Shown here: piece after piece, positions 4,064 to 29,729 of the stretch
Numbering within the stretch: the first letter of the stretch is position 1
Layout: each line of letters begins with the position of its first letter
Origin: Candidatus Omnitrophota bacterium
GTDB lineage: Bacteria; Omnitrophota; Gorgyraeia; Gygaellales; Profunditerraquicolaceae
Assembly (NCBI GenBank): GCA_041662125.1
Contig: JBAZTA010000002.1
Coordinates: 396,154 to 460,153, forward strand
DNA length: 64,000 nucleotides
Direction: 5' to 3'
The notes under the pieces: generated by a model
What the model saw: the letters and a program-made list of their open reading frames with translations, nothing else
What the model was told of the DNA's origin: nothing
Databases searched by the model: none
Program-made: the position numbers and the translations under genes

Positions 4064-4103
4064 GAGTTTTTTGCGGTAGACTGGAAAAGGGATTCTTGCG
4101 AAT

Positions 4104-4132
4104 TTGACAAGATCGCCGTTTAGTGGTATATT
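4104..4132 (+). promoter_or_regulatory. Sigma70-like promoter upstream of rex paralog 1
   Basis: TTGACA (4104-4109), 17-nt spacer, TATATT (4127-4132). Confidence 0.55.
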
Positions 4133-4140
4133 TTATAAAT

Positions 4141-4158
4141 TTGTGAAAAATGTAACAA
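4141..4158 (+). promoter_or_regulatory. Candidate Rex operator (autoregulatory), partial match
   Basis: TTGTGAAAAATGTAACAA vs consensus TTGTGAA-N4-TTCACAA: perfect left half, 2 mismatches in the right half. Lies between the -10 and the rex start. Confidence 0.4.
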
Positions 4159-4167
4159 GGTTACGCT

Positions 4168-4806
4168 ATGCATGATGCAAAGAAATATATCCCTCAGGAA
4201 ACGGCAAAACGATTAAGTTTATATCTGCGAAGCCTGCGCAGGCTTGGCCAAGAGAAGGTCAGGATAGCTTCTTCGCAGGATATCACCCGTTTTTTGAATA
4301 TCTCTCCTGTCCAACTGAGGAAGGATCTATCGTATTTCGGCGAATTTGGCCGCAGAGGCGTTGGGTATGATGTTGATCTCCTCAAGGGTGAGATCGAAAA
4401 GATATTAGGGACGGATGTGGTTTGGAAGATAGCGCTCGTGGGAATAGGCCGGCTGGGGAGTGCGCTCTTGGGGTACAAGGGGTTCAGAGAATTTAATTTA
4501 CAGATTGAAGTTGCCTTTGATAACGATCCTGTGAAAATCGGAAAGAGCAGAGAAGGCATTAAGATCGAGAATATCGCGCGGATAAAAGAAACCATCGCTC
4601 AAAAAGGAATAAAGATCGCAATGCTTTCGGTTTCCGCGGTATCTGCTCAAAAGGTGAGCGAAGAATTAGTAACATGCGGCATAAAATCAATATTGAATTT
4701 CTCTCCGGTCAACCTGGCTTTGCCTTCGGATATTTATGTCTCGAACGTTGATATGGCGTCGGAATTGGAGAGCCTTGTCTATAAATTAAAAAGAGGGTTT
4801 TCGTAA
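4168..4806 (+). CDS. rex: Redox-sensing transcriptional repressor Rex (paralog 1)
   Basis: N-terminal winged-helix region (SLYLRSL...DLSYFGEFG) and Rossmann motif LVGIGRLGSALLGY. Length 212 aa. Confidence 0.85.
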   Translation: MHDAKKYIPQETAKRLSLYLRSLRRLGQEKVRIASSQDITRFLNISPVQLRKDLSYFGEFGRRGVGYDVDLLKGEIEKILGTDVVWKIALVGIGRLGSALLGYKGFREFNLQIEVAFDNDPVKIGKSREGIKIENIARIKETIAQKGIKIAMLSVSAVSAQKVSEELVTCGIKSILNFSPVNLALPSDIYVSNVDMASELESLVYKLKRGFS

Positions 4807-4807
4807 T

Positions 4808-5608
4808 ATGCATGTGATCTTAGAAAAACTCAATCTTGGCCCGAAAATCTATAGTATCACGGTGGATGTGCCGTTTATCGCCAAGAAAGCACAAGCCGGG
4901 CAGTTCGTGATGGTTAAGCTTCACGAAAAGGGGGAGCGCGTTCCTTTGACTATTTCTGATTATGACCGTGATAAAGGAACGATTACGATTGTTTTTCAGG
5001 ATGTCGGAAAGACTTCGGGATTATTGGCGTCAATGAATACAGGAGACCGTATCACCGATATCCTGGGCCCCCAGGGTAATCCTACTGAAATTGCATTGTT
5101 TGGGACTGTGATAGTGGTAGGCGGAGGTATTGGTGTTGCGCCGGTTTATCCCTTGGCGCAAGCCTTGCGTGAAAAAGGCAACTACGTAATATCAGCGCTG
5201 GGTTACCGCAGTAAGGAGCATGTTTTCTGGGAGGATAAATTGCGTTCTGTCTCTGATGAAGTATATCTTGCTACCAACGATGGATCTTATGGGAAGAAAG
5301 GTTTTGTTACTGATGCCCTTAAGGAAATCTTAGACGCTGGTAAGCATATCGATAGAGTGTTCGCCATCGGCCCGACAATAATGATGAAGGGGATAGTTGA
5401 TGTTGCGAAAAGAAAAAATATCCCGGTCGTCGTCAGCTTGAATTCGTTAATGGTCTGCGGTATGGGGATGTGCGGTGCTTGCCGCGTTACGATAGCAGGT
5501 AAGGTGCGGTTTACCTGTATGGATGGCCCTGATTTTGACGGCGCAGGGGTTGATTTTGAAGAATTAATGCAACGCTTAGATACCTATAAACATGAAGAAT
5601 CCCATTGA
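4808..5608 (+). CDS. nfnA: NfnA-like FAD/[2Fe-2S] oxidoreductase subunit (PyrK/SudB-like)
   Basis: PyrK-like FAD/NAD fold. C-terminal CGMGMCGACR 2Fe-2S motif. Sits immediately upstream of a GltD-like partner. Confidence 0.65.
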   Translation: MHVILEKLNLGPKIYSITVDVPFIAKKAQAGQFVMVKLHEKGERVPLTISDYDRDKGTITIVFQDVGKTSGLLASMNTGDRITDILGPQGNPTEIALFGTVIVVGGGIGVAPVYPLAQALREKGNYVISALGYRSKEHVFWEDKLRSVSDEVYLATNDGSYGKKGFVTDALKEILDAGKHIDRVFAIGPTIMMKGIVDVAKRKNIPVVVSLNSLMVCGMGMCGACRVTIAGKVRFTCMDGPDFDGAGVDFEELMQRLDTYKHEESH

Positions 5609-7010
5609 GAAAAAAACAGTTCCCATGCGCCAGTTGGAGGCTTCACAGAGAATAAAGAATTTCCAGGAGGTTCCGCTGGGATATTCTCAAGAAGAAGCAA
5701 TACGGGAAGCTTCCCGGTGCCTGCAATGCGTGACCCGTCCCTGTGTCAAAGGCTGTCCGGTTACCATCGATATCCCTGGTTTTATCAAGGCGATCAAAGA
5801 TGAAGATTTGCAGAAAGCTATCGATATTCTTCATGAGTCTGATACGTTACCGGCGGTAACCGGGAGGGTTTGCCCGCAAGAAGGGCAGTGCCAATTGACG
5901 TGCGTGCTCGCTCAAGCGGGGGAACCGATATCGATCGGGAGATTAGAACGGTTTGTTGCTGACTGGGATTTGCATAATCGTAAAAACCTCGCCGGCGTTG
6001 AGGTAGCTCAGCAAGGCCTCAAGGTCAAAAAGGTAGCGGTGGTTGGTTCCGGCCCCGCGGGCCTGGCGGCTGCTGCTGATTTGGCGAAAAAGGGCTATTC
6101 TGTTACGGTGTATGAAGGGTTTCATAAATTCGGCGGTGTTCTGGTCTACGGTATCCCTGAATTCCGTCTTCCGAAAGATATCGTAGCTTCTGAGATCGAG
6201 TTTTTGAAGGGATTAGGAGTTATTTTTACGGCTAATGTTTTAATCGGCAGGGCTCTGACGATCCCGGATTTATTTGCGCAAGGCAATGAAGCGGTTTTTA
6301 TCGCTGCGGGAGCGGGGTTACCGAAGTTCATGGGTATCCCGGGTGAAAACTTAAACGGCGTATATTCCGCGAATGAATTCTTGACCAGAGTAAATTTAAT
6401 GAAAGCGTATCAATTCCCTGAATATGATACGCCGGTTAAAAAAGGTGAGCAGGTCGCGGTTATCGGCGGTGGTAATGTTGCCGTTGATGCTGCCAGGACT
6501 GCGCTTCGCCTGGGTGCAAAGACCGTGTATTTGATTTATCGCCGCTCTGAAAAAGAGATGCCTGCCCGGGAAGAAGAAATCCTGCGCGCCAAAGAAGAAG
6601 GCATATCCTTTTGTCTTTTGACGAACCCGGTTTCCTATATCGGAGACAGCCGCGGGTTTATCAAGGCGGCCCAATGCGTTAAGATGGAATTAGGCCAGCC
6701 TGATGTCTCCGGAAGGGCAAGCCCCTATGCGATCCTGGGGTCGGAATTTATCATAGCAGTTGATGAGGTTATTGTTGCCGTCGGGGCAACGCCAAATCCG
6801 ATTCTCGCGCGCACGACTCCCGGTTTAAAGATCAAGCGTGCTGGGCAGATCGAAGTAGATGGATCAGGCAGGACATCGATGCCGGGTGTGTTTGCCGGAG
6901 GCGATATTGTGACGGGATCGGCTACGGTGATCACGGCAATGGGCGCCGGCAGGATCGCCGCGGCTGCCATCGATGAATACCTGAAAGGGAAATTGTGGCC
7001 GAGCATATAA
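5592..7010 (+). CDS. nfnB: NfnB-like / glutamate synthase small-subunit (GltD) family oxidoreductase
   Basis: Two N-terminal Cys clusters (CLQCVTRPCVKGCP). FAD/NAD(P) Rossmann motif VAVVGSGPAGLAAA. Length 472 aa. Confidence 0.7.
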   Translation: MKNPIEKKTVPMRQLEASQRIKNFQEVPLGYSQEEAIREASRCLQCVTRPCVKGCPVTIDIPGFIKAIKDEDLQKAIDILHESDTLPAVTGRVCPQEGQCQLTCVLAQAGEPISIGRLERFVADWDLHNRKNLAGVEVAQQGLKVKKVAVVGSGPAGLAAAADLAKKGYSVTVYEGFHKFGGVLVYGIPEFRLPKDIVASEIEFLKGLGVIFTANVLIGRALTIPDLFAQGNEAVFIAAGAGLPKFMGIPGENLNGVYSANEFLTRVNLMKAYQFPEYDTPVKKGEQVAVIGGGNVAVDAARTALRLGAKTVYLIYRRSEKEMPAREEEILRAKEEGISFCLLTNPVSYIGDSRGFIKAAQCVKMELGQPDVSGRASPYAILGSEFIIAVDEVIVAVGATPNPILARTTPGLKIKRAGQIEVDGSGRTSMPGVFAGGDIVTGSATVITAMGAGRIAAAAIDEYLKGKLWPSI

Positions 7011-8365
7011 TTGACGAAAAATATATTGAGGATACGCTTAAGAAGACAAGATCTCCTTCGAGTGAAACCATTGCCGGTATCCTTAGAAAAGCAAAATTAA
7101 AAAAAGGGCTTACCCTTGAAGAGGCCGGGTATTTGCTGAATGGTAGTCCTGCTTGTATGCAAGATATTTTTCTTGCCGCAGGAAAGGTCAAAAAAGAAAT
7201 ATACGGCGAGAGGCTGGTGTTTTTCGCGCCTTTGTATATTTCTGATTATTGCGTCAATGATTGTGATTATTGTAATTTTCATGCCCGTAATAAAGCCTTG
7301 CAGCGTAGAAAGCTTACCCTTGAAGAAATAGAAGAGCAGGTTAAATTTTTGATCAATATGGGCCATAAGCGTGTTTTGGTCGAGTTCGGGGAAGATCCTG
7401 AGCATAATGATATTGATTATGTGGTAAAAGCCATAGAGATGATATATTCGGTAAAGACGGACAAAGGAAGTATCCGTCGGATCAATGTGAATATCGCGGC
7501 TACCACGTTTGAGAATTATCAAAAGCTTAAAGCCGCTTCTATCGGTACGTATCAGCTTTTTCAGGAGACTTATCATCGGGCTACCTATGAAAAAGTCCAC
7601 CGCGGGCCAAAAGCTGATTACCTGCGTCAGATCACCGCTTATGACCGGGCGCTCGAAGCCGGCCTTGATGATATCGGCCTGGGGGTGCTTTTTGGTTTGT
7701 ATGATTGGCGTTTTGAGGTTTTAGCGCTTATCGCTCATTCCCAGTATTTGGATAAGAACTATAAGGTGGGTCCGCATACCATCTCTGTTCCGCGTTTTCA
7801 GCCTGCGCCTACAGCGCAAATGTCTAAAACCTATCAGGTCAGTGACGAGGATTTTTTGCAACTCATAGCAGTTTTGCGGCTGGCGGTCCCCTATACCGGG
7901 ATGATCATTTCAACACGGGAAAGTGCCCCAATCAGGCGCGCCGCTTTTAAGATCGGGATTTCACAGGCTTCTGCAGCATCCTGCACTACGATCGGCGGTT
8001 ACGGAAAAGGCCATGATCAACCGCAGTTTAAGATCCAGGATGAACGCCCTCTGGAAGAGGTAGTTGAGGATATTGTTAAAGAAGGTTACCTCCCGAGTTT
8101 TTGCACGGCCTGTTACCGTCTGGGCCGCACGGGGGAACATTTTATGGACATCTCTAAGGCAGGGAATATCCATAAATTCTGCCGGCCTAACGGCATCCTT
8201 ACGTTTGCTGAGTACTTGGAAGACTTTGCCGATAAACAACTATATGAAAAGGGCAGGAAAGTCATTGAGTTTTATATAAATCAAATACATGATCAGGCGT
8301 TGCGTGAAAGAACGCGCGCCTGCCTTGATGAAATCAGTAAAGGAAAGAGAGACGTGTATTTCTAA
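6995..8365 (+). CDS. hydG: [FeFe]-hydrogenase maturase HydG (radical SAM tyrosine lyase)
   Basis: CVNDCDYC radical-SAM motif. C-terminal CTAC-x22-C motif typical of HydG rather than ThiH. GTG start. Confidence 0.8.
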   Translation: MAEHIIDEKYIEDTLKKTRSPSSETIAGILRKAKLKKGLTLEEAGYLLNGSPACMQDIFLAAGKVKKEIYGERLVFFAPLYISDYCVNDCDYCNFHARNKALQRRKLTLEEIEEQVKFLINMGHKRVLVEFGEDPEHNDIDYVVKAIEMIYSVKTDKGSIRRINVNIAATTFENYQKLKAASIGTYQLFQETYHRATYEKVHRGPKADYLRQITAYDRALEAGLDDIGLGVLFGLYDWRFEVLALIAHSQYLDKNYKVGPHTISVPRFQPAPTAQMSKTYQVSDEDFLQLIAVLRLAVPYTGMIISTRESAPIRRAAFKIGISQASAASCTTIGGYGKGHDQPQFKIQDERPLEEVVEDIVKEGYLPSFCTACYRLGRTGEHFMDISKAGNIHKFCRPNGILTFAEYLEDFADKQLYEKGRKVIEFYINQIHDQALRERTRACLDEISKGKRDVYF

Positions 8366-9543
8366 TGTGTTACGCGATCCCGGGGAAGGTCCTGGATGTT
8401 GATAAGAAGATCATAACGGTTGATTATTTCGGCGAACATAAAAAAGCCAGAAATGAGTTTTACGAATTAACGCCGGGGGATTATGTATATGCTCAAGGCG
8501 GGTTTGTTGTGCAGAAGATCTCTGAGAGCGAGGCGATAGAAATTCTTAAAACCTGGGAAGAATTGTTTTTTAAATTGCAGGAGATCGATTCAGAATTAGT
8601 GCGTAATCCCAAGGGGTTATACCAGGTTGCCAATAATATCCGTCACAAAAATCACGGTAATTCCTGCTGTATCCATGGCATCTTAGAGTTTTCCAATTAT
8701 TGCAGGTGTAATTGCCTGTATTGCGGTATTCGAAAGGATTCTCCTGGGGTAACCCGTTACCGGATGAGTGTCGATGAGGTTGTTGATGCTGCTCGAAAAG
8801 CGGTTCATGCGTTAAAATTTAAAGCGCTTGTTTTGCAGTCGGGTGAAGATCTTTGGTATGACGAAAAGAAGCTGGCCAGGATCGTTAAGGAAATGAGGGA
8901 AAAAGCTCCTTGTTTAATAATTTTAAGTATTGGAGAAAGGGATTTAGAAACCTATAGGAAATTATACGACGCAGGGGCCCGCGGGGCGTTAATACGCTTT
9001 GAGACCAGTAATTCCGCTCTTTACAAAAAAATCAGGCCTGAGCATCGTTTAGAAGACCGTCTTGATCTGATCAGAAAATTAAAAGAGATCGGTTATATTG
9101 TCATGACCGGATTTCTTATCGGCTTACCGGGACAGACAGAAGAAGATATCCTGAAAGATATTGACGTAACCGACTCCCTGGGCCCTGATATGTTTTCTTT
9201 TGGGCCGTTTATTCCTCATCCGGACACTCCCCTTGCGCAATACCCCTCGCCTACTACAGAGACGGTTTTAAATACTATTGCTCACGCTCGTATTAAGAGC
9301 CCTCAGGCTAATATACTTGTTAATACTTCTTTTGAGACCCTGGACCGGGAAAACGCGGTCAGGCTTGGGCTGATGGCGGGAGCAAATTCTGTTATGATCA
9401 ATGTGACTCCACAAAAATACCGTAAATTGTATGATATTTATCCAAATCGTGCCGGCATAGATTTAGAGATGCATGAGAGGATCGATGCTATTGTAAAAAC
9501 GCTGCATGCTATTGGCCGTGCGCCGACGGATCTGGGGGTCTAA
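8365..9543 (+). CDS. hydE: HydE-family radical SAM maturase with N-terminal HypC/HupF-like domain (fusion)
   Basis: Residues 1-70 (MCYAIPGKV...VDYFG...GDYVYAQGGFV...EAIEIL) match the HypC signature MC(L/I)A(I/V)P. The remainder matches HydE (ILEFSNYCRCNCLYCGIRKD...LQSGED...GFLIGLPGQT...GPFIPHPDTPLA). Confidence 0.75.
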   Translation: MCYAIPGKVLDVDKKIITVDYFGEHKKARNEFYELTPGDYVYAQGGFVVQKISESEAIEILKTWEELFFKLQEIDSELVRNPKGLYQVANNIRHKNHGNSCCIHGILEFSNYCRCNCLYCGIRKDSPGVTRYRMSVDEVVDAARKAVHALKFKALVLQSGEDLWYDEKKLARIVKEMREKAPCLIILSIGERDLETYRKLYDAGARGALIRFETSNSALYKKIRPEHRLEDRLDLIRKLKEIGYIVMTGFLIGLPGQTEEDILKDIDVTDSLGPDMFSFGPFIPHPDTPLAQYPSPTTETVLNTIAHARIKSPQANILVNTSFETLDRENAVRLGLMAGANSVMINVTPQKYRKLYDIYPNRAGIDLEMHERIDAIVKTLHAIGRAPTDLGV

Positions 9544-10460
9544 TGAAGCTTTTGGTTACGGGGGCGACAGGGTTTATTGGCAGGTATCTTGTTGAGGCCT
9601 TGGTCAGGGAAAATCATGAAGTGTCCGCCCTGGCGAGAGAAACCAGTAAGGTTGATTTTTTGAAGCAGCAGGGGATTGATTGTATTACAGGGGATGTCAG
9701 CGTTGAAAGAAGCCTGCGGCCTGTCTTAGGGCGTAAGTTTGATGCTATTTTTCATTGCGCCGGGTATGTTCTCAACGATGATTGGAAGAAGCTTCACCGG
9801 ATCAATGTCGTTGGTACGGAAAATGTCTGCGCCTTGGGCCTTAAGCTTGGTGTTGAACGGCTGGTATATTTGAGTTCGGTGGCTGTGGTCAGCGGAAATG
9901 ATGTGAGCCCCTTGAAAGAAGATCTCCCGTATAGTGCGACAAACCTGTATGGGCTTTCTAAATTAGACGCTGAAAGTAAAGTAGTAGAGTTCCGGAAAAG
10001 AGGCTTACGCGTTGCGATTGTTCGCCCGTGTATGGTTTATGGGAGAGGTGAACCGCATGCTTTGAGTAAGATCCTTTTTTGCCTGAAACACCGTCTCCTG
10101 CCGCTGGTTGAACAGGGGAAAGCAAAATGGCATCTGGGTTACGTGGAGAATATCGTTGATGTTTTGCTTCTGGCGCTTAAGAAAGAAACAGCCCTGGCGG
10201 GAAGTTTTTTCGCCGCTGATGAAGAAATACTGACCGTAAAAGAAATTTTAGCTATTTTAAGCTCGAATATCAAAGGCCCGCCTCCTTTTTGTATCCCTTC
10301 CTGGATGACGCCAGCTATTCTTAAAATACCGTATATAGGCAAGAAAGCAAACTTTTTTATCAAAGACCGGATCTATGATCTAAGCAGGTTAAAGTCTTTG
10401 GGTTTCAAGGCTAGGTTTAATGCCCGCGAAGCGTTAGCACGCAGTGTCTCTTCTCCTTAA
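9543..10460 (+). CDS. NAD-dependent epimerase/dehydratase (SDR family)
   Basis: N-terminal GATGFIGRYL Rossmann motif. Length 305 aa. Substrate unknown. Confidence 0.65.
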   Translation: MKLLVTGATGFIGRYLVEALVRENHEVSALARETSKVDFLKQQGIDCITGDVSVERSLRPVLGRKFDAIFHCAGYVLNDDWKKLHRINVVGTENVCALGLKLGVERLVYLSSVAVVSGNDVSPLKEDLPYSATNLYGLSKLDAESKVVEFRKRGLRVAIVRPCMVYGRGEPHALSKILFCLKHRLLPLVEQGKAKWHLGYVENIVDVLLLALKKETALAGSFFAADEEILTVKEILAILSSNIKGPPPFCIPSWMTPAILKIPYIGKKANFFIKDRIYDLSRLKSLGFKARFNAREALARSVSSP

Positions 10461-10502
10461 TTCTTCTTAGTTCTCACCTGGCAAAAGTGTTGCAGAATTA
10501 AA

Positions 10503-10530
10503 TTGATAAGAATGACAAAGTTGTTATAAT
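10503..10530 (+). promoter_or_regulatory. Sigma70-like promoter upstream of the 730-aa radical SAM gene
   Basis: TTGATA, 16-nt spacer, TATAAT. Confidence 0.5.
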
Positions 10531-10587
10531 GATAACGGAAATAATGAAGGTTAATTTCGATACGTATCGTTAGCGAGGGTCGAGATA

Positions 10588-12780
10588 ATGAAACAGGTCT
10601 CCAGGGTTTCGCCAAAAGTTGCGGTGTTATTATTTAATACTGATGCGAAAAATGGGGTGTTTTGGGGGAACCTGTCTTTGTCTTTCTTTGCTGGACAGCT
10701 AAAATCGTTAAAGATTGACTACACGTTATTTGTTTTATTAATGAAACCGGCAGATATAAAGCAAAACCAGGAAACCATTAATAAATCTCTTAATCTTCTG
10801 GTGCGGGGAAAGTTTGATACTATCATCATGCATTCTTCATGGCTGCCGTGGCTGCCTCAAACGCTGCGTCAGAGAACGGGGGCTAAAGTTTTCTGCCTGG
10901 ATTATTCAGACAAACAGGATATCCCTGATCAGTTAAATCTTATGGGCTTGCCTCCGGTTCAAACAGTCCTGGCAGCTTTGTTGAATACAAAATTTGAGAG
11001 CATCCAAGAGGTTATAAAAAAATTTAAACGCCTCACAACGTTTAATCCTCAATTTAATTATACTTTCGTAGGCTTACCCCCGGGCAGTCAAACGCTGCCA
11101 AAACAGGAAAAAGTAGACGTTTCTCTTCGAGTTCCTTGTCCGTTCCATCAGGATGTTCGGCTTAATCCTCGGTTTAAAGGGATATGTTTTGACGAAGGGA
11201 TCAGTACGCAAGGTTGTTCTTATTGCGTCGCGGCAAAAGCATCGTTGAATCGCCCTATGGCAGAGGATAAGAAAAGAAAACAAATGGTTGAGCAGGTACG
11301 CTACCTGCAAAACCATCTTCCTTCCTTGAAAGAGATCGCAGTCGTTTATCCGGAGTTATATTTACGGGTGTTGCCCTGGATCATGCGCAATAGTAAAAGG
11401 TTGGGGATTAAACCGATTACTTTTTCCGGCCAATTCAGAGCTGCGGTATTAGCGCGGCATGAGTCGGATATCCGCGTATTGCTTAAGACAGCCCTTAAGA
11501 CCGGCTTTCGGTTTGAAATGTGCGTGGTTGGCTTGGAAAGTTTTTGCAACCAAGATTTGATGTTGTTTAACCGAGGTTCGGTCCGTGAAGTTAGACAGGC
11601 GGTTAAGGTCATTGAAAGGCTTCGGGACAGCTTTGATCCCGGTTTTTTTATGCCCGCCACCGTAGGAAGTTTTATCCTTTTTCATCCTTGGCAAACGGTT
11701 GCCGGTTTAAGGGAGAATATCCGTTCATTTTTGTCTGAGGGTATCCATGGTTTGTTCCCGAAATTAAACTTTAATGATATCCGCATCAATAAAGATGTGG
11801 CATTGTATAAATTGGCAGAAGCGCAAAATTGCCTTTCATCTCAGGCAGGGCGTAATATTAATGATATCCCTCTGGGGGGGTATTTTACTGAACATCCGTG
11901 GGTATTTAAAGATAAAAAAACAAAACACATCCATGCGCTTTATACCAGTCTTGCGCCTAAGGTCACGGAAAGAATAGGATTGCTTGAGGCTTTATGCGAT
12001 TATGCCGAGAAATCAAGACTTAATAGCGAATCCTCTGACGGGAAAAAGATCGTGCCTCTTTTGGAAGGCTTGTATAGTTTGTTATTACGCTATTACTGGC
12101 AGAAGGATTCTGAGGGAGTGCCGGTTTATGTTGGTGATACCTGTAATTCTTCCTGCCAATACTGTGTTTATGAGCATGCGCGGTTTATAAAAGGCAAACC
12201 TTTGGCTATAAAAAACGCACATGCTGCTTTTCTGAAAAATAAGCAAGTAGTGACGATCGCGGGGCGTGAACCTACGCTCCTGCCGTGGCTTATTCCGTTT
12301 ATCCGCGGGTTGAAAAAGAAAAACCCCCGGCGTATCCAGCTTGTTACTAACGCCAGAAGGTGTGTGTATCCTCACTATGCCGGATCTTTGCTCCGCGCGG
12401 GTGTTTCAGATTTTTTAATTAAATTTTTCTCCTGGCAGCCGAAGGTGCATGATCAGCTTACCCGCTGCCCGGGTTCTTTCCGTCAGTCAGTTGCTGGTAT
12501 CGGGGAATTGAAACGGTCGGCCCAAAGTTTGGCTATCCCTGTTCAAATCGCTCTTTTAGTTGTGGTTTCAGATGCAGTCATTAATGAATTACATGAAACA
12601 ATCCTTTTCGCGCAAAGAATAGGCGCTGATGAAGTGCGGTTTGTTTATCCCATGAGCGCGGTTAATCTTGCTGGTTTGAAAGATTCAGCACGAAAATTAG
12701 AAGCTATTTTAAGCCAGCGAAGGGACCCTCGTTTGTGCGTGGGCACTGATCCCCGGTTTAGTTTCTCTATGACTGTTTAG
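10588..12780 (+). CDS. Uncharacterised two-domain protein with C-terminal radical SAM domain
   Basis: C-terminal CNSSCQYC (CX3CX2C) motif followed by a GGEP-like TIAGREPTL. The N-terminal ~440 aa are cysteine-containing with no canonical motif. Own promoter upstream. Confidence 0.55.
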   Translation: MKQVSRVSPKVAVLLFNTDAKNGVFWGNLSLSFFAGQLKSLKIDYTLFVLLMKPADIKQNQETINKSLNLLVRGKFDTIIMHSSWLPWLPQTLRQRTGAKVFCLDYSDKQDIPDQLNLMGLPPVQTVLAALLNTKFESIQEVIKKFKRLTTFNPQFNYTFVGLPPGSQTLPKQEKVDVSLRVPCPFHQDVRLNPRFKGICFDEGISTQGCSYCVAAKASLNRPMAEDKKRKQMVEQVRYLQNHLPSLKEIAVVYPELYLRVLPWIMRNSKRLGIKPITFSGQFRAAVLARHESDIRVLLKTALKTGFRFEMCVVGLESFCNQDLMLFNRGSVREVRQAVKVIERLRDSFDPGFFMPATVGSFILFHPWQTVAGLRENIRSFLSEGIHGLFPKLNFNDIRINKDVALYKLAEAQNCLSSQAGRNINDIPLGGYFTEHPWVFKDKKTKHIHALYTSLAPKVTERIGLLEALCDYAEKSRLNSESSDGKKIVPLLEGLYSLLLRYYWQKDSEGVPVYVGDTCNSSCQYCVYEHARFIKGKPLAIKNAHAAFLKNKQVVTIAGREPTLLPWLIPFIRGLKKKNPRRIQLVTNARRCVYPHYAGSLLRAGVSDFLIKFFSWQPKVHDQLTRCPGSFRQSVAGIGELKRSAQSLAIPVQIALLVVVSDAVINELHETILFAQRIGADEVRFVYPMSAVNLAGLKDSARKLEAILSQRRDPRLCVGTDPRFSFSMTV

Positions 12781-12926
12781 CCTTAGCCAAATTTCCCTCC
12801 CTGAAGAAGTAGAAGGCCTCTTGTTCTAAGGGCTTAATTTTTTCCGAACTGTTCAATCTTAATTACTCAATAGCTTTAATTATAGCTAATATTATGGTAT
12901 ACAACATCTTACGTCCTTGCTTGTTG

Positions 12927-12944
12927 TAGTGAAATAAATCACAA
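12927..12944 (+). promoter_or_regulatory. Candidate Rex operator upstream of rex paralog 2 / hydF / kinase operon
   Basis: TAGTGAAATAAATCACAA: one mismatch per half-site vs TTGTGAA-N4-TTCACAA. Immediately upstream of and overlapping the promoter -35 TTGACA (12950-12955); -10 is TATACT (12972-12977). Confidence 0.5.
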
Positions 12945-12949
12945 AAAAT

Positions 12950-12977
12950 TTGACACAACTCGAAAATATGTTATACT
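12950..12977 (+). promoter_or_regulatory. Sigma70-like promoter upstream of rex paralog 2
   Basis: TTGACA, 16-nt spacer, TATACT. Confidence 0.55.
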
Positions 12978-13007
12978 TAGCATAGTTATTGTGAAATAAG
13001 GAGCAAT

Positions 13008-13643
13008 ATGATTACCAATAAGAATTGTATTATCCGGTTATCGCGGTATAAAAATGCTTTATATCGTCTCAGAACTCTTGGGTTTATTAAAGTATTTTCT
13101 GATAATTTAGCTGATGCCATTGGTGTGATGCCTTCTCAGGTCCGGAAAGATTTCTCGATATTCGGTATTTCCGGAAATAAGCGGGGAGGCTATCAGGTTG
13201 ATGAGCTTATTGAGAAACTCAATAATATCTTAGGTAAGAATGAGATCCAAAAAGTTGTTATTGTTGGGGCAGGCAATATCGGCACCGCGCTCATGAAATA
13301 CAAAGGCTTTGAAAAAGAGGGAATAAAGCTCATGGCGGTCTTTGATATCGATTCTTTGAAATTCAATAAAACCGTAGATGTTCCGGTATTGCCATTGGAG
13401 CAGCTCCCTGATTTTATAAAAAAGAATAAGATCAGAATAGGGATCATTGCGGTTCCTGATATCGCCGCGCAGCAGATACTTGATAGTATGGTTTCTGCGG
13501 GTATTAAGGGGATCTTGAATTTTGCCCCTATACGGTTGCGCGGCCCGGCGGATTGCGTGATCAATAACGTGAACCTGGAGTTGGAGTTGGAAAATGTTAT
13601 TTATTTCGTTAACACGCAGGAGAAAGCAAAGGTTGAGGAATAG
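13008..13643 (+). CDS. rex: Redox-sensing transcriptional repressor Rex (paralog 2)
   Basis: Same architecture as paralog 1 (SRYKNALYRL...DFSIFG...VVIVGAGNIGTALMKY). Own promoter and candidate Rex box upstream. Confidence 0.75.
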   Translation: MITNKNCIIRLSRYKNALYRLRTLGFIKVFSDNLADAIGVMPSQVRKDFSIFGISGNKRGGYQVDELIEKLNNILGKNEIQKVVIVGAGNIGTALMKYKGFEKEGIKLMAVFDIDSLKFNKTVDVPVLPLEQLPDFIKKNKIRIGIIAVPDIAAQQILDSMVSAGIKGILNFAPIRLRGPADCVINNVNLELELENVIYFVNTQEKAKVEE

Positions 13644-13645
13644 GT

Positions 13646-14878
13646 ATGAAGACGACGCCTAAGTCATTGCGTTTGCAGATCGGTTTGTTTGGCCGGACCA
13701 ATGTGGGAAAATCAAGTTTTTTGAATCTCATCGCCGGCCAGGACGTTGCGATCACATCTGCTGTCCCCGGCACAACGACTGACGTCGTGGAAAAGGCCAT
13801 GGAACTTCTACCGCTTGGGCCGGTCGTGTTCTTAGATACCGCAGGGATCGACGATGCTTCTGTGTTGGGTGACCTGCGCGTTAAAAAGTCCCGGAAAATA
13901 TTTGACCGCGCTGATGTTATTGTCTTAATAGCTGAACCTGATGTGTGGGGCGAGTTTGAAGATAAGATCTGGGATGAGGCAGGGAAACGCTCGATCCCGG
14001 TAATTATCGTGGTCAATAAAGCTGATGTGTTGGCGCCTGCAGAAGAGTTTATAGAAGCGCTGCGAAAGAAGACTGATAGATTCTTTCTGTGTTCTAGTAT
14101 CGATTCCGCCCACCGGGATACCTATGTATTTGCTTTGAAAAAGAATCTTATTGAGGTTTGTCCTGCTGATTTCCTGAATCCGCCTCCTTTATTAAAAGAC
14201 CTCCTGCCTTCATGCGGACTGGCAATAATGATCATTCCTATTGATAAGGAAGCTCCGAAAGGAAGGCTTATTTTACCTCAGGCTCAAGCGATACGGGATG
14301 CCTTAGACGGCGATGCGGCGGCGTTGATAGTTAAGGAAAAAGAATACGCCCATACCTTGAGAAATTTGAAGAATCCGCCTGATATCGTTATGTGTGATTC
14401 CCAGGTTGTTGAGAAAATGGTTGCCGATACACCCGCAGGTATCAAATGCACCACGTTTTCGATTTTGTTCGCGCGGAATAAAGGCGATTTATTGGAAATG
14501 GTGAAAGCGATATCGGCCATTGATACGTTAAAGCCGGGTGATAAAATATTAATTGCCGAATCCTGCAGCCATCATGCTATTGAAGATGATATCGGCAGGG
14601 TCAAAATCCCCCGCTGGCTGGAAAAATATTTAGGATTTAAGGTGCATATCGATGTGTGTTCAGGCAGGGATTATCCGGATAATCTCAAGGAGTATAAGCT
14701 TATCGTGCATTGCGGCGGCTGTATGCTGACGCGCAGGGAGATGCTTTTTCGGATCAATAAAGCAAAAGCGGAGAATGTTCCGATAACCAATTACGGTATT
14801 TGTATCGCGTTTTTACAGGGAGTATTAGTTCGGGTGTTATCGCCGTTTCCGGCGTGTTTAGAGGTATTGCGAAAATGA
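13646..14878 (+). CDS. hydF: [FeFe]-hydrogenase maturation GTPase HydF
   Basis: GRTNVGKSSF P-loop and TTTD G2 motif. C-terminal CSHH...HCGGC FeS-binding motif characteristic of HydF. Confidence 0.8.
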   Translation: MKTTPKSLRLQIGLFGRTNVGKSSFLNLIAGQDVAITSAVPGTTTDVVEKAMELLPLGPVVFLDTAGIDDASVLGDLRVKKSRKIFDRADVIVLIAEPDVWGEFEDKIWDEAGKRSIPVIIVVNKADVLAPAEEFIEALRKKTDRFFLCSSIDSAHRDTYVFALKKNLIEVCPADFLNPPPLLKDLLPSCGLAIMIIPIDKEAPKGRLILPQAQAIRDALDGDAAALIVKEKEYAHTLRNLKNPPDIVMCDSQVVEKMVADTPAGIKCTTFSILFARNKGDLLEMVKAISAIDTLKPGDKILIAESCSHHAIEDDIGRVKIPRWLEKYLGFKVHIDVCSGRDYPDNLKEYKLIVHCGGCMLTRREMLFRINKAKAENVPITNYGICIAFLQGVLVRVLSPFPACLEVLRK

Positions 14879-16713
14879 AGACTGAAACCTTGCAAAAGAA
14901 GATATTGTTCTCGTTTTTTCTCGTCATTGGAGTGATGGGGCTGTCTATCGCTATCCTGCGCACGTATGTCATCAAGGTAGATATTATTGACCGGGCGCAG
15001 ACCCAGGTCAAAAATGACCTAAAAGCAGCGCGGGAGGTTTTTGATAATGAGCTCGAAATGATGCAAAAGATGTTTAGCCTCCTGCCTTCGAATGACCATG
15101 TCATCGAATTAAGGGAAAAATTGGGGTTGGATTATTTACGCGTGGCAACGCTTGAAAATAAAACGCGCGTTTTAAGCAAGATCGCGCAGCTTGCGTTTTC
15201 CGGTAAGAGCCTGGGGGCAAGCCGTATTATTGATAAAGACGAGCTTTTGGAGATGGGGGAGGAATTCTATAAACGCTCGGAAATTGAAATACGCTTTACG
15301 CAGAAAGCTAAATCTACGACAAAGAAGATCCTGGATAAAGCAATGGTTTTAGAATACGCTATGCCTCTGGTTACTGAGCAAGGGCAGGTCAAAAGCGTCA
15401 TATATGGGGGGAAGATCATTAATCGCGATTTCGCGTTGGTCGATAGAATACGCGACCTGGTTTTTGAGAATAAGATCTATGATGCCAAGCCGCTGGGAAC
15501 CGTGACAATATTTCTTGATGACGTCCGCATTACCACGAATGTTTTAGACAGCCAAGGCAACCGTGCCATCGGTACGCGGGTTTCCGAGAGAGTCTATGAT
15601 ACGGTGGTCAAGAACGCCTTGACCTGGGTTGACCGGGCCTTTGTTGTGACGGACTGGTACCTTACCGCCTATGAGCCGATACGGGATGTCCAGGGCGCTA
15701 TTATCGGCATACTGTATGTTGGCATCCTGGAAAAGCCCTTTAGCGATATTACCAGAAATGTGCTTTTTGTGCTGGTGGCGATTGTTTCATTTTCTTCTAT
15801 CCTTGCGGCGATTTTAGGGTATGTCCTTGCGGCAACTATCACCAAGCCTTTGACGCAGATGCTTGAAGCGACTTCCCGGATATCGGGAGGCCATCTTGAG
15901 CACCGGGTAGAAAACAGGGCTTCGGTAAAAGAATTGGATGAATTGGCGCGGTCTTTTAATGAGATGGCAGCAAAGCTGCATGAACGCGATATGAGCCTGC
16001 AGGTGTCTAATGATAAACTGGCAGAGCTTAATAAAAGTTACCTTGATTTGATCGGTTTCGTCGCTCATGAGTTAAAGAACATATTGTCTTCTACCATCTT
16101 GAACGCTTATACCGTCAAGGACGGGTTCCTGGGAATGATCAATTTTAAACAGCGTAAAGCTCTTGACTCGGTAGCGCGCAACCTCGATTATTTTGCCTCT
16201 ACCATAAAGAATTTCTTAAACTTAAGCAGAATCGAGAAACATGAGTTGAGCTTGAACAGGTTAGAGTTATCAATAAAAGATGATATTCTTAGCCTCTCAC
16301 TTGAATCGTTCTTGCGCGAGGCAAATGAAAAGAATATCCGGATCATCAATTCCATCCCGGAAGGATTAAAGATAAAAGGTGACAGTGACCTGTTGCAGAT
16401 CGTCTTCAATAATCTTATCGCCAATGCCGTCAAATACGGCAGGCCGGGCGGGCAAATCATCCTGAGCGCACGTGAGTTACCGCAGAGTATTGAAATAGAA
16501 GTCTATAATGATGCCCGGCCTATTCAAGCGGAAGATATCAATAAACTGTTCCAGAAATTCTCTCGTTTGAGTTACGCCGAAAACAAAAAAGAGCGCGGCA
16601 CCGGGTTAGGGCTTTTTATTACTAAAGAGATCATTGAAAAACACGGCGGCAGGATCTGGGTTGAGCCGCGTTTGGAGGGTAACGCGTTTATATTCGGATT
16701 GATGAAAATTTAA
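14875..16713 (+). CDS. Sensor histidine kinase (two TM helices, periplasmic sensor domain, HAMP, HisKA, HATPase)
   Basis: ATG at 14875 overlaps the hydF stop (ATGA). TM1 and TM2 flank a ~260-aa extracytoplasmic domain. H-box VAHELKN. G-box GTGLGLFI. Confidence 0.75.
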   Translation: MKTETLQKKILFSFFLVIGVMGLSIAILRTYVIKVDIIDRAQTQVKNDLKAAREVFDNELEMMQKMFSLLPSNDHVIELREKLGLDYLRVATLENKTRVLSKIAQLAFSGKSLGASRIIDKDELLEMGEEFYKRSEIEIRFTQKAKSTTKKILDKAMVLEYAMPLVTEQGQVKSVIYGGKIINRDFALVDRIRDLVFENKIYDAKPLGTVTIFLDDVRITTNVLDSQGNRAIGTRVSERVYDTVVKNALTWVDRAFVVTDWYLTAYEPIRDVQGAIIGILYVGILEKPFSDITRNVLFVLVAIVSFSSILAAILGYVLAATITKPLTQMLEATSRISGGHLEHRVENRASVKELDELARSFNEMAAKLHERDMSLQVSNDKLAELNKSYLDLIGFVAHELKNILSSTILNAYTVKDGFLGMINFKQRKALDSVARNLDYFASTIKNFLNLSRIEKHELSLNRLELSIKDDILSLSLESFLREANEKNIRIINSIPEGLKIKGDSDLLQIVFNNLIANAVKYGRPGGQIILSARELPQSIEIEVYNDARPIQAEDINKLFQKFSRLSYAENKKERGTGLGLFITKEIIEKHGGRIWVEPRLEGNAFIFGLMKI

Positions 16714-16731
16714 GCTGAAAACAGCTGGATT

Positions 16732-16806
16732 CCACCCCGCGCTCATTGCACCCCAGCCTAATTGGAGTGGCTGGGTACGCCGCCTTCTGCGGCGGTATTG
16801 CGCGGG
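16732..16806 (+). repeat. Conserved intergenic element family A, copy 2 (upstream of hndB)
   Basis: See copy 1. Followed by a GC hairpin (TGCGCC/GGCGCA) abutting the hndB RBS. Confidence 0.7.
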
Positions 16807-16837
16807 TATGCGCCTTTCTGGCGCAAGGAGAATAACT

Positions 16838-17197
16838 ATGTCTGCTACACCACTTGAGATAATTAAAAAGAAACGGGCGGAAGCGCTCAATAGAATTGTC
16901 GGGAAAGGATATTTGTCCACGAAGCGGGTTTATGTGGGCATGGCGACCTGTGAGATAGCAGCCGGTTCAAAAGAAGTTATGGATGTTTTTAATGCTGCGA
17001 TCAAGAACGGTTTGACGGATGTCTATTTGACACAAAAGGGGTGCGCCGGAAGATGTAATTTGGAGCCGACGGTTGAGGTGATCGAAGAAGGAAAGATCCC
17101 GGTTAAATACGGCAAGATAACACAGGAAAAAGCGCTTGAAATCATCGAGCGCCATCTTAAAAAAGGGGAAGTCATTAAAGAATGGCTGATTAAGTAA
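16838..17197 (+). CDS. HndB-like small thioredoxin-fold [2Fe-2S] ferredoxin subunit of NADH-linked [FeFe] hydrogenase
   Basis: ~120 aa with conserved Cys residues (ATCE, KGCAGRC). Sits directly upstream of the NuoF-like subunit. ATG at 16838 has the AAGGAG RBS. Confidence 0.55.
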   Translation: MSATPLEIIKKKRAEALNRIVGKGYLSTKRVYVGMATCEIAAGSKEVMDVFNAAIKNGLTDVYLTQKGCAGRCNLEPTVEVIEEGKIPVKYGKITQEKALEIIERHLKKGEVIKEWLIK

Positions 17198-29722: not shown

Positions 29723-29729
29723 TTTATTT

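What the first reader, a model, noticed from the sequence alone, without database searches (positions are those of the whole stretch)
9543..12780. Uncharacterised SDR epimerase and 730-aa two-domain radical-SAM protein embedded in the [FeFe] maturation cluster
An NAD-dependent epimerase/dehydratase (9543-10460) and a large protein (10588-12780) sit between hydG/hydE and rex2/hydF. The large protein has a canonical CX3CX2C + GGEP-like radical-SAM domain in its C-terminal ~290 aa and a Cys-containing ~440-aa N-terminal region of unknown fold. Neither is part of the canonical HydEFG machinery. Their position inside the otherwise complete maturation set suggests auxiliary H-cluster or cofactor-processing functions, possibly ligand or precursor modification.
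Basis: partly seen in the sequence, partly recalled or inferred. Interest (0 to 1): 0.7.

Follow-up and report, generated by a model that had tools for sequence, protein, structure and literature searches.

The report
Stray tandem radical-SAM gene among hydrogenase genes
Both genes are real, but the 730-aa protein is a rare, separately transcribed enzyme with two radical-SAM modules whose relatives elsewhere never sit near hydrogenase genes, and the small reductase is a common Omnitrophota gene, so neither is likely to help build the [FeFe] hydrogenase cofactor.

Summary
An extended SDR (9543-10460) and a 730-aa radical-SAM protein (10588-12780) lie between hydG/hypC::hydE-like and rex2/hydF in a Candidatus Omnitrophota MAG.

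The family is tiny: 25 clusters among 5.8 billion, and 13 of 185,579 species genomes. Only four closely related Omnitrophota clusters have the hyd context. In 16 other loci (241 kb) no hyd gene is present. There the gene sits in Myxococcota multi-radical-SAM clusters with HxsB/HxsC-like enzymes.

In the window it has its own conserved promoter without a Rex box, and it evolves 2-5 times faster than the hyd genes. More than 120 Omnitrophota lineages carry the neighbouring hypC::hydE fusion without it.

The SDR is a widespread, probably NADPH-type, Omnitrophota enzyme and the last gene of a Rex-controlled nfnAB-hydG-hypC::hydE operon. It recurs next to hydrogenase genes in three arrangements, but not always.

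An auxiliary H-cluster role is unlikely for the radical-SAM protein and unproven for the SDR.

The parts
9543..10460 (+). Extended SDR of 305 aa, probably NADPH-dependent. It is the last gene of the rex1-nfnA-nfnB-hydG-hypC::hydE2 unit, and its ATG overlaps the hydE2 stop codon (ATGA).
   Evidence: PF01370 at 134.6 bits. The best NCBIfam hits, OleD and HpnA, are far below their cut-offs. The alignment of 25 homologues shows invariant T6-G7-A8-T9-G10-F11-x-G13, R32, S111/S112, Y136 and K140. There are 1288 homologues, with hundreds of Omnitrophota clusters at 50-60% identity. dN/dS is 0.10.
10503..10530 (+). Sigma-70-type promoter-like site (TTGATA, 16 nt, TATAAT, with an extended-10 TG), 58 nt upstream of the radical-SAM gene's start codon. 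No Rex box is nearby.
   Evidence: It matches 11 of 12 consensus positions and is one of the three best sites in 4000-17300. The block is conserved in L012 and L013 while the surrounding spacer diverges and carries indels. No Rex-box match with up to 3 mismatches lies in 10461-10587.
10588..12780 (+). The 730-aa tandem radical-SAM protein, called rSAM730 in this report.
   Evidence: ORF. It is 100% identical to an NCBI 'MAG: radical SAM protein [Candidatus Omnitrophota bacterium]'. The AlphaFold2 model has pLDDT 84.4 and pTM 0.82. dN/dS is 0.21-0.26.
10612..11037 (+). N-terminal Rossmann-like module, aa 9-150, resembling a cobalamin-binding domain.
11050..11952 (+). Divergent first radical-SAM barrel, aa 155-455. 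It is the most conserved part of the family.
11137..11226 (+). Non-canonical cluster motif C184-x25-C210-x2-C213, located between strand 1 and helix 1 of the first barrel.
   Evidence: It is invariant in 23 of 23 family members. 'GCP[YF]-x(19-27)-GC[AS][FY]C' recurs in almost all of the 150 best superfamily hits. Its position after E175-178 and before the next helices (H215-218, H226-243) follows.
12103..12777 (+). Canonical second radical-SAM domain, aa 506-730, of the MoaA/NifB/HxsC type. It has no SPASM or twitch extension.
12142..12165 (+). C519-x3-C523-x2-C526 motif of the second domain. The GGE-like G559-R-E-P562 follows at 12262-12273.
   Evidence: Read directly from the sequence. The Cys triad is present in P0001-P0013 and absent in P0014-P0023, whereas G559, E561 and P562 are invariant.
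8365..9543 (+). Context: HypC/HupF domain (aa 1-64, N-terminus MCYAIPGKV with Cys2) fused to a HydE-like radical-SAM enzyme.
   Evidence: PF01455 at 1e-13 plus PF04055 and BATS. TIGR03956 at 265 bits. Sequence. At least 120 fusion clusters at 59-92% identity.
6995..8365 (+). Context: HydG.
   Evidence: TIGR03955 at 537 bits against a cut-off of 312.
12927..12977 (+). Context: Rex box (12927-12944) abutting the promoter-like site (12950-12977) of rex2-hydF. A similar pair lies at 4104-4158, upstream of rex1.
13008..14878 (+). Context: rex2 (13008-13643) and hydF (13646-14878).
   Evidence: NF003996 at 247.6 bits and TIGR03918 at 522 bits.

Best explanation
The two genes are not part of one device, and neither is an H-cluster maturase.

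The 730-aa protein (rSAM730):
- Shown: it belongs to a rare, uncharacterised family of tandem radical-SAM enzymes. The order of modules is a cobalamin-domain-like Rossmann module, a divergent class-B-type radical-SAM barrel, a helical linker, and a canonical MoaA/NifB/HxsC-type radical-SAM domain without SPASM.
- Inferred: the first barrel binds its [4Fe-4S] cluster through C184-x25-C210-x2-C213, and the second through C519-x3-C523-x2-C526.
- Inferred mechanism: each module binds a site-differentiated [4Fe-4S] cluster and SAM, and the two carry out consecutive radical steps on one substrate. FbiC (CofG+CofH fused) is the precedent for two radical-SAM modules in one chain. The N-terminal module is the indispensable one, because the family keeps it even where the C-terminal Cys triad is lost.
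- Inferred, weakly: the substrate is a peptide or protein side chain rather than an organometallic precursor. In other phyla the gene travels with HxsB/HxsC/PapB-like and SPASM-type maturases, a HemN-like radical-SAM enzyme and an FMN reductase.
- In this Omnitrophota lineage it is a lineage-specific, independently transcribed gene lodged between two Rex-controlled hydrogenase-maturation operons.

The SDR:
- It is a widespread Omnitrophota extended SDR with a Ser-Tyr-Lys triad and an invariant Arg32 after strand 2, which suggests NADPH.
- It is the last gene of the Rex-controlled nfnAB-hydG-hypC::hydE2 operon.
- It most likely acts as an NADPH-dependent carbonyl reductase or epimerase on a sugar or lipid-like metabolite, co-regulated with redox-balancing genes. 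It probably does not act on the H-cluster.
For: Architecture:
- The models have pLDDT 84 and 82.
- The Cys motifs and barrel motifs are invariant, and the motif recurs across the best 150 hits of a superfamily with 701 representatives at E<=1e-3.

Rarity and context:
- 25 clusters among 5.8 billion and 13 of 185,579 species genomes.
- The hyd context occurs only in P0001-P0004, L012 and L013, at 65-82% identity.
- No hyd gene was found in 16 other loci totalling 241 kb.
- The Myxococcota clusters hold HxsC4-like (200 bits), HxsB/PapB-like, SPASM/twitch and HemN/ChuW-like radical-SAM genes plus an FMN reductase.

Independence from the hyd genes:
- It has its own promoter-like site, conserved in three genomes, with no Rex box. 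The flanking operons carry Rex boxes.
- Amino-acid identity to L013 is 65%, against 87-94% for the hyd genes. dN/dS is 0.21, against 0.04-0.11.
- At least 120 hypC::hydE fusion clusters exist, against 4 Omnitrophota clusters of this protein.
- Defined in-vitro maturation needs no such factor (PMC12501116).

SDR:
- Motifs and invariant R32; 1288 homologues.
- Mixed contexts.
- nfnAB lies in the same unit.
- A second PF01370 SDR lies at 36040-37011.
Against: - The gene order hydG-hypC::hydE2-SDR-rSAM730-rex-hydF is kept in all four known Omnitrophota carriers, at down to 65% identity. The insertion is therefore stable.
- No terminator-like site separates the SDR from rSAM730 in the window, so read-through from the Rex-controlled operon is possible.
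- There is no compositional sign of recent transfer.
- The SDR sits next to hydrogenase or maturase genes in three different arrangements: the window type, L106 after hydG-like, and L011 after hydA. That is more than a random housekeeping gene would be expected to show.
- Peptide or protein as the substrate class rests only on weak HxsC-level similarity and on neighbours in another phylum.
- No candidate substrate gene was found in the window.
- Cluster binding by C184/C210/C213 and SAM cleavage by either module are untested.
Confidence: 0.6

Rival explanations
1. rSAM730, with or without the SDR, is an accessory maturase that modifies an H-cluster ligand or precursor. For example, it could process the HydG synthon or a dithiomethylamine precursor in this Omnitrophota lineage.
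For: - It sits between the hydG/hypC::hydE2 and rex2/hydF genes, and this order is kept in four related genomes.
- The wider island also holds hydBAC, a second hydE, a [NiFe] hydrogenase and the glycine-cleavage and lipoylation genes.
Against: - The hyd linkage is confined to one narrow clade, and 16 other loci have no hyd genes.
- At least 120 lineages carrying hypC::hydE lack it.
- It has its own promoter and no Rex box.
- Constraint is relaxed relative to the hyd genes.
- The C-terminal Cys triad is dispensable in the family.
- Defined in-vitro maturation is complete without it.
Confidence: 0.08
2. The SDR and rSAM730 form a two-enzyme cassette for a small molecule: a radical dehydration or rearrangement followed by NAD(P)H-dependent reduction of the resulting carbonyl. 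The model is the AprD4 radical-SAM diol dehydratase with its NADPH reductase partner AprD3. The substrate would be a sugar, polyol or lipid head group.
For: - The AprD4/AprD3 partnership is documented (PMC5461906).
- The SDR is adjacent to rSAM730 in all four Omnitrophota carriers.
- An SDR homologue at 59% identity is flanked by two radical-SAM genes in L009.
- A more distant SDR lies 1.5 kb from the rSAM730 homologue in L006.
- The SDR's best family hits are of the sugar or lipid type: HpnA, OleD, NSDHL.
Against: - The SDR is found in hundreds of lineages without rSAM730.
- The two genes appear to be in different transcription units.
- The SDR in L006 is below 38% identity and so is not an orthologue.
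- The Myxococcota clusters contain no such SDR.
- Structural similarity to AprD4 is no better than to the methyltransferases CysS, MgmA and TsrM.
Confidence: 0.15
3. The SDR alone is functionally tied to the HydG/HypC::HydE2 pair in Omnitrophota. It might supply or recycle a small-molecule substrate or product of these radical-SAM enzymes. rSAM730 is a bystander.
For: - The SDR start codon overlaps the hypC::hydE2 stop codon, and the same is true in L013.
- In L106 the order is hypC::rSAM, hydG-like, a 214-bp gap, then the SDR, at the end of a group-4 [NiFe] hydrogenase operon.
- In L011 the SDR directly follows hydC-hydB-hydA.
Against: - L009 and L010 show SDR orthologues at 55-59% identity with no hydrogenase genes within 8 kb.
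- L010 and L011 share the downstream CheR/pilin genes, so the SDR may be anchored to that side.
- L105 has hydG-like and hypC::rSAM with no adjacent SDR.
- SDR genes are frequent here; a second one lies at 36040-37011.
Confidence: 0.15

Closest known systems
Class B (cobalamin-binding-domain) radical-SAM enzymes and their B12-independent look-alikes: CysS, TsrM, OxsB, MgmA, AprD4
   Different: The cluster motif is C-x25-C-x2-C instead of C-x3-C-x2-C. There is no PF02310 or PF04055 hit for the window protein's N-terminus, and no sequence-level PDB relative. A complete second radical-SAM domain is fused to the C-terminus. Cobalamin binding is unknown.
HxsC / HxsC4 radical-SAM maturases of the His-Xaa-Ser system, now reported as an anti-phage system (PMC13128918)
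   Same: They are the best NCBIfam matches of the C-terminal domain, and like it they have no SPASM extension. Distant family members sit beside HxsC4-like and HxsB-like genes.
   Different: The scores of 66-73 bits are far below the cut-offs of 268 and 500. No HxsA, HxsB or HxsD is in the window. PADLOC gives only generic viperin-level hits. HxsC proteins are about 300 aa, single-domain enzymes.
FbiC (fused CofG+CofH), the F0 synthase
   Same: It is one polypeptide with two radical-SAM modules that act in sequence. It is the precedent for the proposed mode of action (own knowledge; mentioned in PMC11917521).
   Different: There is no sequence relationship. Both FbiC modules have canonical motifs and neither has a Rossmann module. 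Its substrates, tyrosine and a ribityl-diaminouracil, have nothing to do with this context.
HydE and HydG, the radical-SAM maturases of the H-cluster
   Different: rSAM730 does not match TIGR03955 or TIGR03956. It has no BATS domain and no HydG-type auxiliary cluster region, and it does not co-occur with hydrogenases outside one clade.
Extended SDRs of the 3-beta-HSD/NSDHL, HpnA and OleD type (for the 305-aa protein)
   Same: The match to PF01370 and PF01073, the TGxxGxxG and S-Y-K motifs, and the size.
   Different: All equivalog models score far below cut-off: OleD 99.8 against 580, HpnA 98.5 against 368, GalE 60 against 262. The substrate is unknown.

Membership tests
Radical SAM superfamily (C-terminal domain, aa 506-730) | A CX3CX2C cluster motif after strand 1, and a Pfam PF04055 score above its gathering threshold | tested here: met
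   C519-x3-C523-x2-C526. PF04055 scores 45.4 bits against 29.5.
Radical SAM superfamily (C-terminal domain, aa 506-730) | A GGE-type SAM-binding motif at the end of strand 2, and the partial TIM-barrel fold | tested here: met
Radical SAM superfamily (N-terminal barrel, aa 155-455) | Three Cys that ligate a site-differentiated [4Fe-4S] cluster in the loop after strand 1 | tested here: inconclusive
   Three invariant Cys (C184, C210, C213) lie between strand 1 and helix 1, but with a 25-residue insert. Their geometry and metal binding were not tested.
Radical SAM superfamily (N-terminal barrel, aa 155-455) | Detection by the PF04055 profile | tested here: not met
   The window protein gives no hit in this region. 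Only 3 of 11 family members give weak hits, the best at E 0.003. P0151 scores E 0.004.
Radical SAM superfamily (N-terminal barrel, aa 155-455) | The radical-SAM barrel fold | tested here: met
Class B cobalamin-dependent radical SAM | An N-terminal Rossmann-type cobalamin-binding domain preceding the barrel | tested here: inconclusive
   The fold is present. PF02310 is not hit, and AprD4, an equally good match, does not use cobalamin (own knowledge).
Class B cobalamin-dependent radical SAM | Binds cobalamin | not testable with these tools
   This needs a cofactor analysis of purified protein.
HxsC / HxsC4 (His-Xaa-Ser system) | An NCBIfam equivalog score above cut-off | tested here: not met
   TIGR03977 scores 66.5 bits against 267.9, and NF038332 scores 73.4 against 500.
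HxsC / HxsC4 (His-Xaa-Ser system) | Neighbouring hxsA (HxS-repeat protein), hxsB and hxsD | tested here: not met
   None was found among the annotated neighbours at 4168-17197. There is no small precursor ORF in the flanking spacers.
SPASM/twitch radical SAM maturases | A C-terminal Cys-rich auxiliary-cluster domain | tested here: not met
   There is no PF13186 hit, and no Cys after C526 is conserved.
[FeFe] hydrogenase H-cluster maturation set (HydE/HydF/HydG and accessories) | Sequence membership in HydE, HydG or HydF | tested here: not met
   Neither protein matches TIGR03955, TIGR03956 or TIGR03918.
[FeFe] hydrogenase H-cluster maturation set (HydE/HydF/HydG and accessories) | Co-occurrence or linkage with hydA/E/F/G across lineages | tested here: not met
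   For rSAM730, linkage is seen only in 4 related clusters, and there are no hyd genes in 16 other loci. At least 120 hypC::hydE lineages lack it. For the SDR the contexts are mixed.
[FeFe] hydrogenase H-cluster maturation set (HydE/HydF/HydG and accessories) | Required for maturation | not testable with these tools
   Published defined systems work without such proteins (PMC12501116). No Omnitrophota system has been tested.
Extended SDR (NAD-dependent epimerase/dehydratase, PF01370) | A Pfam score above threshold, the TGxxGxxG motif and the S...YxxxK triad | tested here: met
   134.6 bits against 20.9. T6-G7-A8-T9-G10-F11-x-G13, S111/S112, Y136 and K140 are invariant.
OleD / HpnA / GalE equivalogs | An NCBIfam equivalog score above cut-off | tested here: not met
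   OleD scores 99.8 against 580, HpnA 98.5 against 367.65, and GalE 60.2 against 262.3.

The most novel reading that the evidence does not exclude
The hydG - hypC::hydE2 - SDR (- rSAM730) genes form an Omnitrophota-specific pathway for an organometallic Fe(CO)x(CN)y building block. The HypC-like domain carries the HydG product. The pathway serves [NiFe] as well as [FeFe] hydrogenases, because the hydG-like/hypC::rSAM pair closes group-4 [NiFe] hydrogenase operons next to hycI and hypA in L105 and L106. In one lineage the SDR and the tandem radical-SAM enzyme were recruited to process a ligand or precursor of that pathway. The part of this reading that concerns rSAM730 is the least likely part.
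Probability: 0.07. Interest if true: 0.85.

Novelty: new variant of a known kind. Interest (0 to 1): 0.35.

Why it matters
For hydrogenase biology the result is mostly negative. The large radical-SAM gene should not be treated as a missing H-cluster maturase, and gene-neighbourhood arguments based on this one clade would mislead.

For radical-SAM enzymology it points to an unannotated group. About 700 clusters at 50% identity share a class-B-like module whose cluster-binding motif carries a 19-27-residue insert (CPY...GCxFC). Neither Pfam nor NCBIfam recognises the module, and it is often fused to further radical-SAM domains. No member has been characterised. The Myxococcota multi-radical-SAM clusters around it would be a reasonable place to look for new chemistry.

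The SDR question, whether it is linked to hydG/hypC::hydE2, is cheap to settle by a phylum-wide survey.

Tried and rejected
- Metagenome scan with the SDR alignment. The degenerate patterns were generic, so 77 of 80 loci were SDRs at 25-35% identity. It was useless for orthologue context, and that scan is now spent.
- A Foldseek search against afdb50 was not available.
- A profile of the N-terminal 480 aa against PDB sequences gave only spurious hits to designed proteins.
- PADLOC gave only viperin-level radical-SAM similarity, so no defence-system membership.
- Literature searches found nothing relevant. The queries were Omnitrophota + radical SAM + hydrogenase, tandem or double radical SAM, CX21-26CX2C motifs, and HypC-HydE fusion.
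- A test for horizontal transfer by GC, GC3 and codon usage showed rSAM730 to be indistinguishable from its neighbours.
- A search for a precursor-peptide ORF in the spacers 10461-10587 and 12781-13007 found no plus-strand ORF of 20 aa or more.
- A search for the Asp/Cys-rich CDGxDNDCDG repeat proteins that neighbour distant homologues found none in the 64-kb window.
- A naive longest-ORF caller on the high-GC loci produced shadow ORFs. It was replaced by a GC3>GC1>GC2 filter.
- The SDR in L006 was considered as an orthologue of the window SDR and rejected, because identity is below 38%.
- Matching contig lengths between the SDR and hypC::hydE hit lists, as a proxy for co-occurrence, gave only two extra matches. 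Both lists are truncated at 120, so no statistic was drawn from this.

Full report
**Observation**

- The first is an extended SDR. PF01370 scores 134.6 bits. It has GATGFIG and an invariant Ser/Tyr136/Lys140 triad. An invariant Arg32 after strand 2 suggests NADPH.
- The second matches Pfam only at aa 514-644 (PF04055, 45.4 bits). It carries C519-x3-C523-x2-C526 and a GGE-like G559-R-E-P562.

The neighbours are also as described:
- Upstream: rex1, nfnA, nfnB, hydG (TIGR03955, 537 bits) and a HydE-type gene.
- Downstream: rex2, hydF (TIGR03918, 522 bits) and a histidine kinase.
- Further downstream: hydB, a group-A6 hydA and hydC.

The exact sequence is in NCBI as a Candidatus Omnitrophota MAG protein. 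Two details differ from the finding. The adjacent 'hydE' is a HypC/HupF::HydE-like fusion that scores barely above the HydE cut-off (265 against 254.6 bits). A second, better HydE (308 bits) lies at 21411-22472.

**What the 730-aa protein is**

An alignment of 23 family members shows that the N-terminal 470 aa, not the canonical C-terminal domain, is the conserved core. Its invariant residues are:
- C184-P185 and G209-C210-x-Y212-C213
- P255-E256
- S280-G281-Q282
- V313-x-G315-x-E317-S318
- N328-R329
- F365-H-P-W-Q369
- P428-L-x-G-Y-F433

By contrast, the C-terminal Cys triad is present only in P0001-P0013. It is replaced by non-Cys residues in P0014-P0023, although G559, E561 and P562 stay invariant.

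The three invariant Cys lie in the loop between strand 1 (E175-178) and the next helix, where radical-SAM enzymes bind their cluster. Here the loop carries a 25-residue insert.

Sequence profiles barely see this module.
- Pfam and NCBIfam give no hit for the window protein's N-terminus.
- 3 of 11 members hit PF04055 weakly.
- There is no PDB sequence relative.

The protein is therefore a tandem radical-SAM enzyme: a Rossmann module, a divergent barrel (C-x25-C-x2-C), a helical linker, and a canonical barrel (C-x3-C-x2-C). It has no SPASM or twitch extension.

**How wide the family is**

- The full-length family is tiny: 25 clusters at 90% identity among 5.8 billion, and 13 of 185,579 species-representative genomes.
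- A profile of the N-terminal module alone finds 701 representatives at E<=1e-3 (520 at <=1e-10) among 1.84 billion.
- These are proteins of 400-1900 aa that usually carry further canonical radical-SAM domains, and sometimes a B12-binding domain.
- In almost all of the 150 best hits the motif 'GCP[YF]-x(19-27)-GC[AS][FY]C' is kept.
- I found no literature on such a motif, and the source databases give these proteins almost no names.

**Genomic context of relatives**

The hydrogenase context is confined to the closest relatives.
- P0003 (67% identity), L013 (65%) and L012 (82%) repeat the window's order gene for gene.
- P0004 shares its contig with an SDR orthologue.

All other members (33-47% identity) come from high-GC MAGs labelled Myxococcota or Deltaproteobacteria, plus a few others. 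tblastn with HydA, HydB, HydE, HydF and HydG finds nothing in 16 such loci, totalling 241 kb.

In those loci the gene sits in conserved multi-radical-SAM clusters that hold:
- a B12-type radical-SAM gene
- a twitch/SPASM-type gene
- an HxsC4-like gene (200 bits, below cut-off)
- an HxsB/PapB-like gene
- a roughly 950-aa multi-domain radical-SAM protein
- a HemN/ChuW-like gene
- an FMN reductase

Often a giant secreted Asp/Cys-rich 'CDGxDNDCDG' repeat protein follows directly downstream. Other contexts are ABC-2 transporters or unrelated genes.

**Is it part of the hyd operons here?**

The three best promoter-like sites in 4-17.3 kb (11 of 12 matches, extended -10) lie upstream of rex1 (4104-4132), upstream of rSAM730 (10503-10530) and upstream of rex2 (12950-12977).
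- The first and third are accompanied by Rex boxes, at 4141-4158 and 12927-12944. The second is not.
- The rSAM730 promoter block is conserved in L012 and L013, while the rest of the spacer diverges and carries indels.
- No terminator-like site follows the SDR in the window, so read-through cannot be excluded.

Between the window and L013:
- The hyd genes are 87-94% identical (dN/dS 0.04-0.11).
- The SDR is 83% identical (dN/dS 0.10).
- rSAM730 is 65% identical (dN/dS 0.21).

rSAM730 is thus functional but clearly less constrained. Composition and codon usage are unremarkable.

The neighbouring hypC::hydE fusion occurs in at least 120 clusters (59-92% identity, nearly all Omnitrophota), against four Omnitrophota clusters for rSAM730. 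Fully active [FeFe] hydrogenase can be matured in a defined system of HydE, HydF, HydG, glycine-cleavage components and NfuA (PMC12501116). No chemical step is therefore missing that would call for another radical-SAM enzyme.

**The SDR**

It has 1288 detectable homologues, with hundreds of Omnitrophota clusters at 50-60% identity. It is far more widespread than rSAM730. All NCBIfam equivalogs score well below cut-off (OleD, HpnA, thioester reductase, GalE), and the best solved relatives are generic, including NSDHL.

Contexts of orthologues at 54-59% identity are mixed:

| Locus | Context |
|---|---|
| L009 | Between two radical-SAM genes in a polysaccharide cluster |
| L010 | After a response regulator, before CheR-CheR-pilin genes |
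| L011 | Directly after hydC-hydB-hydA, before the same CheR-CheR-pilin genes |
| L106 | After hypC::rSAM and hydG-like, at the end of a group-4 [NiFe] hydrogenase operon |
| L105 | No SDR adjacent to the same pair |

In the window its ATG overlaps the hypC::hydE2 stop codon. That makes it the last gene of a Rex-controlled unit which also encodes NfnAB-like proteins. I infer from the family that these supply NADPH. A second PF01370 SDR lies at 36040-37011.

I read the SDR as an NADPH-type reductase or epimerase of the Rex regulon. A specific link to hydG/hypC::hydE2 is possible but unproven, because the sample is small and partly biased.

**Most likely mechanism**

- Shown: the domain architecture, the motif conservation and the context distribution.
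- Inferred: each barrel binds a [4Fe-4S] cluster and SAM, and the two modules act consecutively on one substrate, as the fused CofG/CofH modules of FbiC do. The N-terminal module is the essential one.
- Weakly inferred: the substrate is a peptide or protein rather than a metallocofactor precursor. This rests on HxsC-level similarity and on RiPP-type neighbours in Myxococcota.

An AprD4/AprD3-like pairing of a radical-SAM enzyme with an NADPH reductase (PMC5461906) is a fair rival for the SDR + rSAM730 pair. The SDR's independent distribution and separate transcription argue against it.

**Membership and novelty**

The C-terminal domain is a bona fide radical-SAM domain. The N-terminal module has the class-B fold but fails the sequence-profile tests, and its metal and cobalamin binding are untested. 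HxsC, SPASM and HydE/G membership are each tested and not met.

I rate the protein a new variant of a known kind. It is a tandem radical-SAM enzyme with an insert-bearing cluster motif, from an unannotated superfamily.

As a hydrogenase-maturation lead it is weak, so the overall interest is modest. The more intriguing observation made on the way is the HypC::HydE-like fusion and its association with [NiFe] hydrogenase operons. That lies outside this finding.

Noticed in passing
window 8365-9543; L105 8517-11176; L106 9398-12397: The 'hydE' next to hydG is a fusion of a HypC/HupF domain (MCYAIPGKV..., Cys2 kept) to a HydE-like radical-SAM enzyme. The fusion occurs in at least 120 clusters, nearly all Omnitrophota. 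In two other Omnitrophota contigs the hydG-like + hypC::rSAM pair (64-67% identical to the window's) closes a membrane-bound group-4 [NiFe] hydrogenase/Mrp operon, next to hycI (and hypA). This hints that a HydG-type CO/CN source and a HypC-type iron carrier serve [NiFe] maturation, or hand over the HydG synthon. No literature was found.
   Followed up: partly
window 21411-22472: A second, full-length and better-scoring HydE (TIGR03956, 308 bits) lies directly after hydB (17243-19078), hydA (19132-20904, group A6) and hydC (20918-21418). The genome therefore has two HydE-type genes. In L011 the orthologue of this one lies upstream of hydCBA, with a tRNA methyltransferase gene between them.
   Followed up: partly
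window 4141-4158, 12927-12944, 24959-24976: Rex-box-like sites (TTGTGAA-N4-TTCACAA, 1-2 mismatches) lie upstream of rex1-nfnAB-hydG..., of rex2-hydF, and of the [NiFe] hydrogenase operon that starts at 25247. There are two rex paralogues in 10 kb. The total count of matches in the window is not above chance, so only their positions are suggestive.
   Followed up: partly
window 25247-36030: A four-subunit, sulfhydrogenase-like [NiFe] hydrogenase (25247-29259) plus HycI (29252-29722) is followed by glycine-cleavage T (30005-31099), H (31114-31500), P1/P2 (31500-34282), a lipoate-protein ligase (34332-35210) and a lipoyl-synthase-like radical-SAM gene (35113-36030). Glycine-cleavage H and T proteins are now known to feed the dithiomethylamine ligand of the H-cluster, so this proximity to the hyd genes may be meaningful.
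   Followed up: partly
L007 1-18403; L014; L018; L021 (Myxococcota-type MAG contigs): A conserved cluster of six to seven radical-SAM genes: B12-type, twitch/SPASM, HxsC4-like, HxsB/PapB-like, a roughly 950-aa multi-domain radical-SAM protein, a HemN/ChuW-like gene and the rSAM730 homologue. It also holds an FMN reductase and a roughly 1950-aa secreted protein with 22% Asp and 7% Cys, made of CDGxDNDCDG repeats. The product and function are unknown.
   Followed up: partly
proteins P0146-P0289 (hits to the profile of window 10588-12027): About 700 clusters at 50% identity share the N-terminal module with a 'GCP[YF]-x(19-27)-GC[AS][FY]C' motif. They are proteins of 400-1900 aa with extra radical-SAM, B12-binding or GFO/IDH/MocA domains. 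Pfam does not cover the module, and the sources give almost no names.
   Followed up: partly
window 10588-12780 versus L012 4173-6338: Synonymous divergence of rSAM730 between the window and L012 (dS 0.36) is about half that of the flanking hydG, hypC::hydE2 and SDR genes (0.69-0.95). This could mean a recent exchange of this gene between the two lineages. The NG86 estimates are near saturation and were not examined further.
   Followed up: no
L012 2576-3107: In L012 a 533-bp spacer separates hypC::hydE2 from the SDR, whereas the two genes overlap in the window and in L013. The content of the spacer was not examined.
   Followed up: no
window 36040-37011: A second PF01370 epimerase/dehydratase-type SDR (323 aa) lies right after the lipoyl-synthase-like gene. 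SDR genes are frequent in this region, which lowers the weight of any single SDR adjacency.
   Followed up: no
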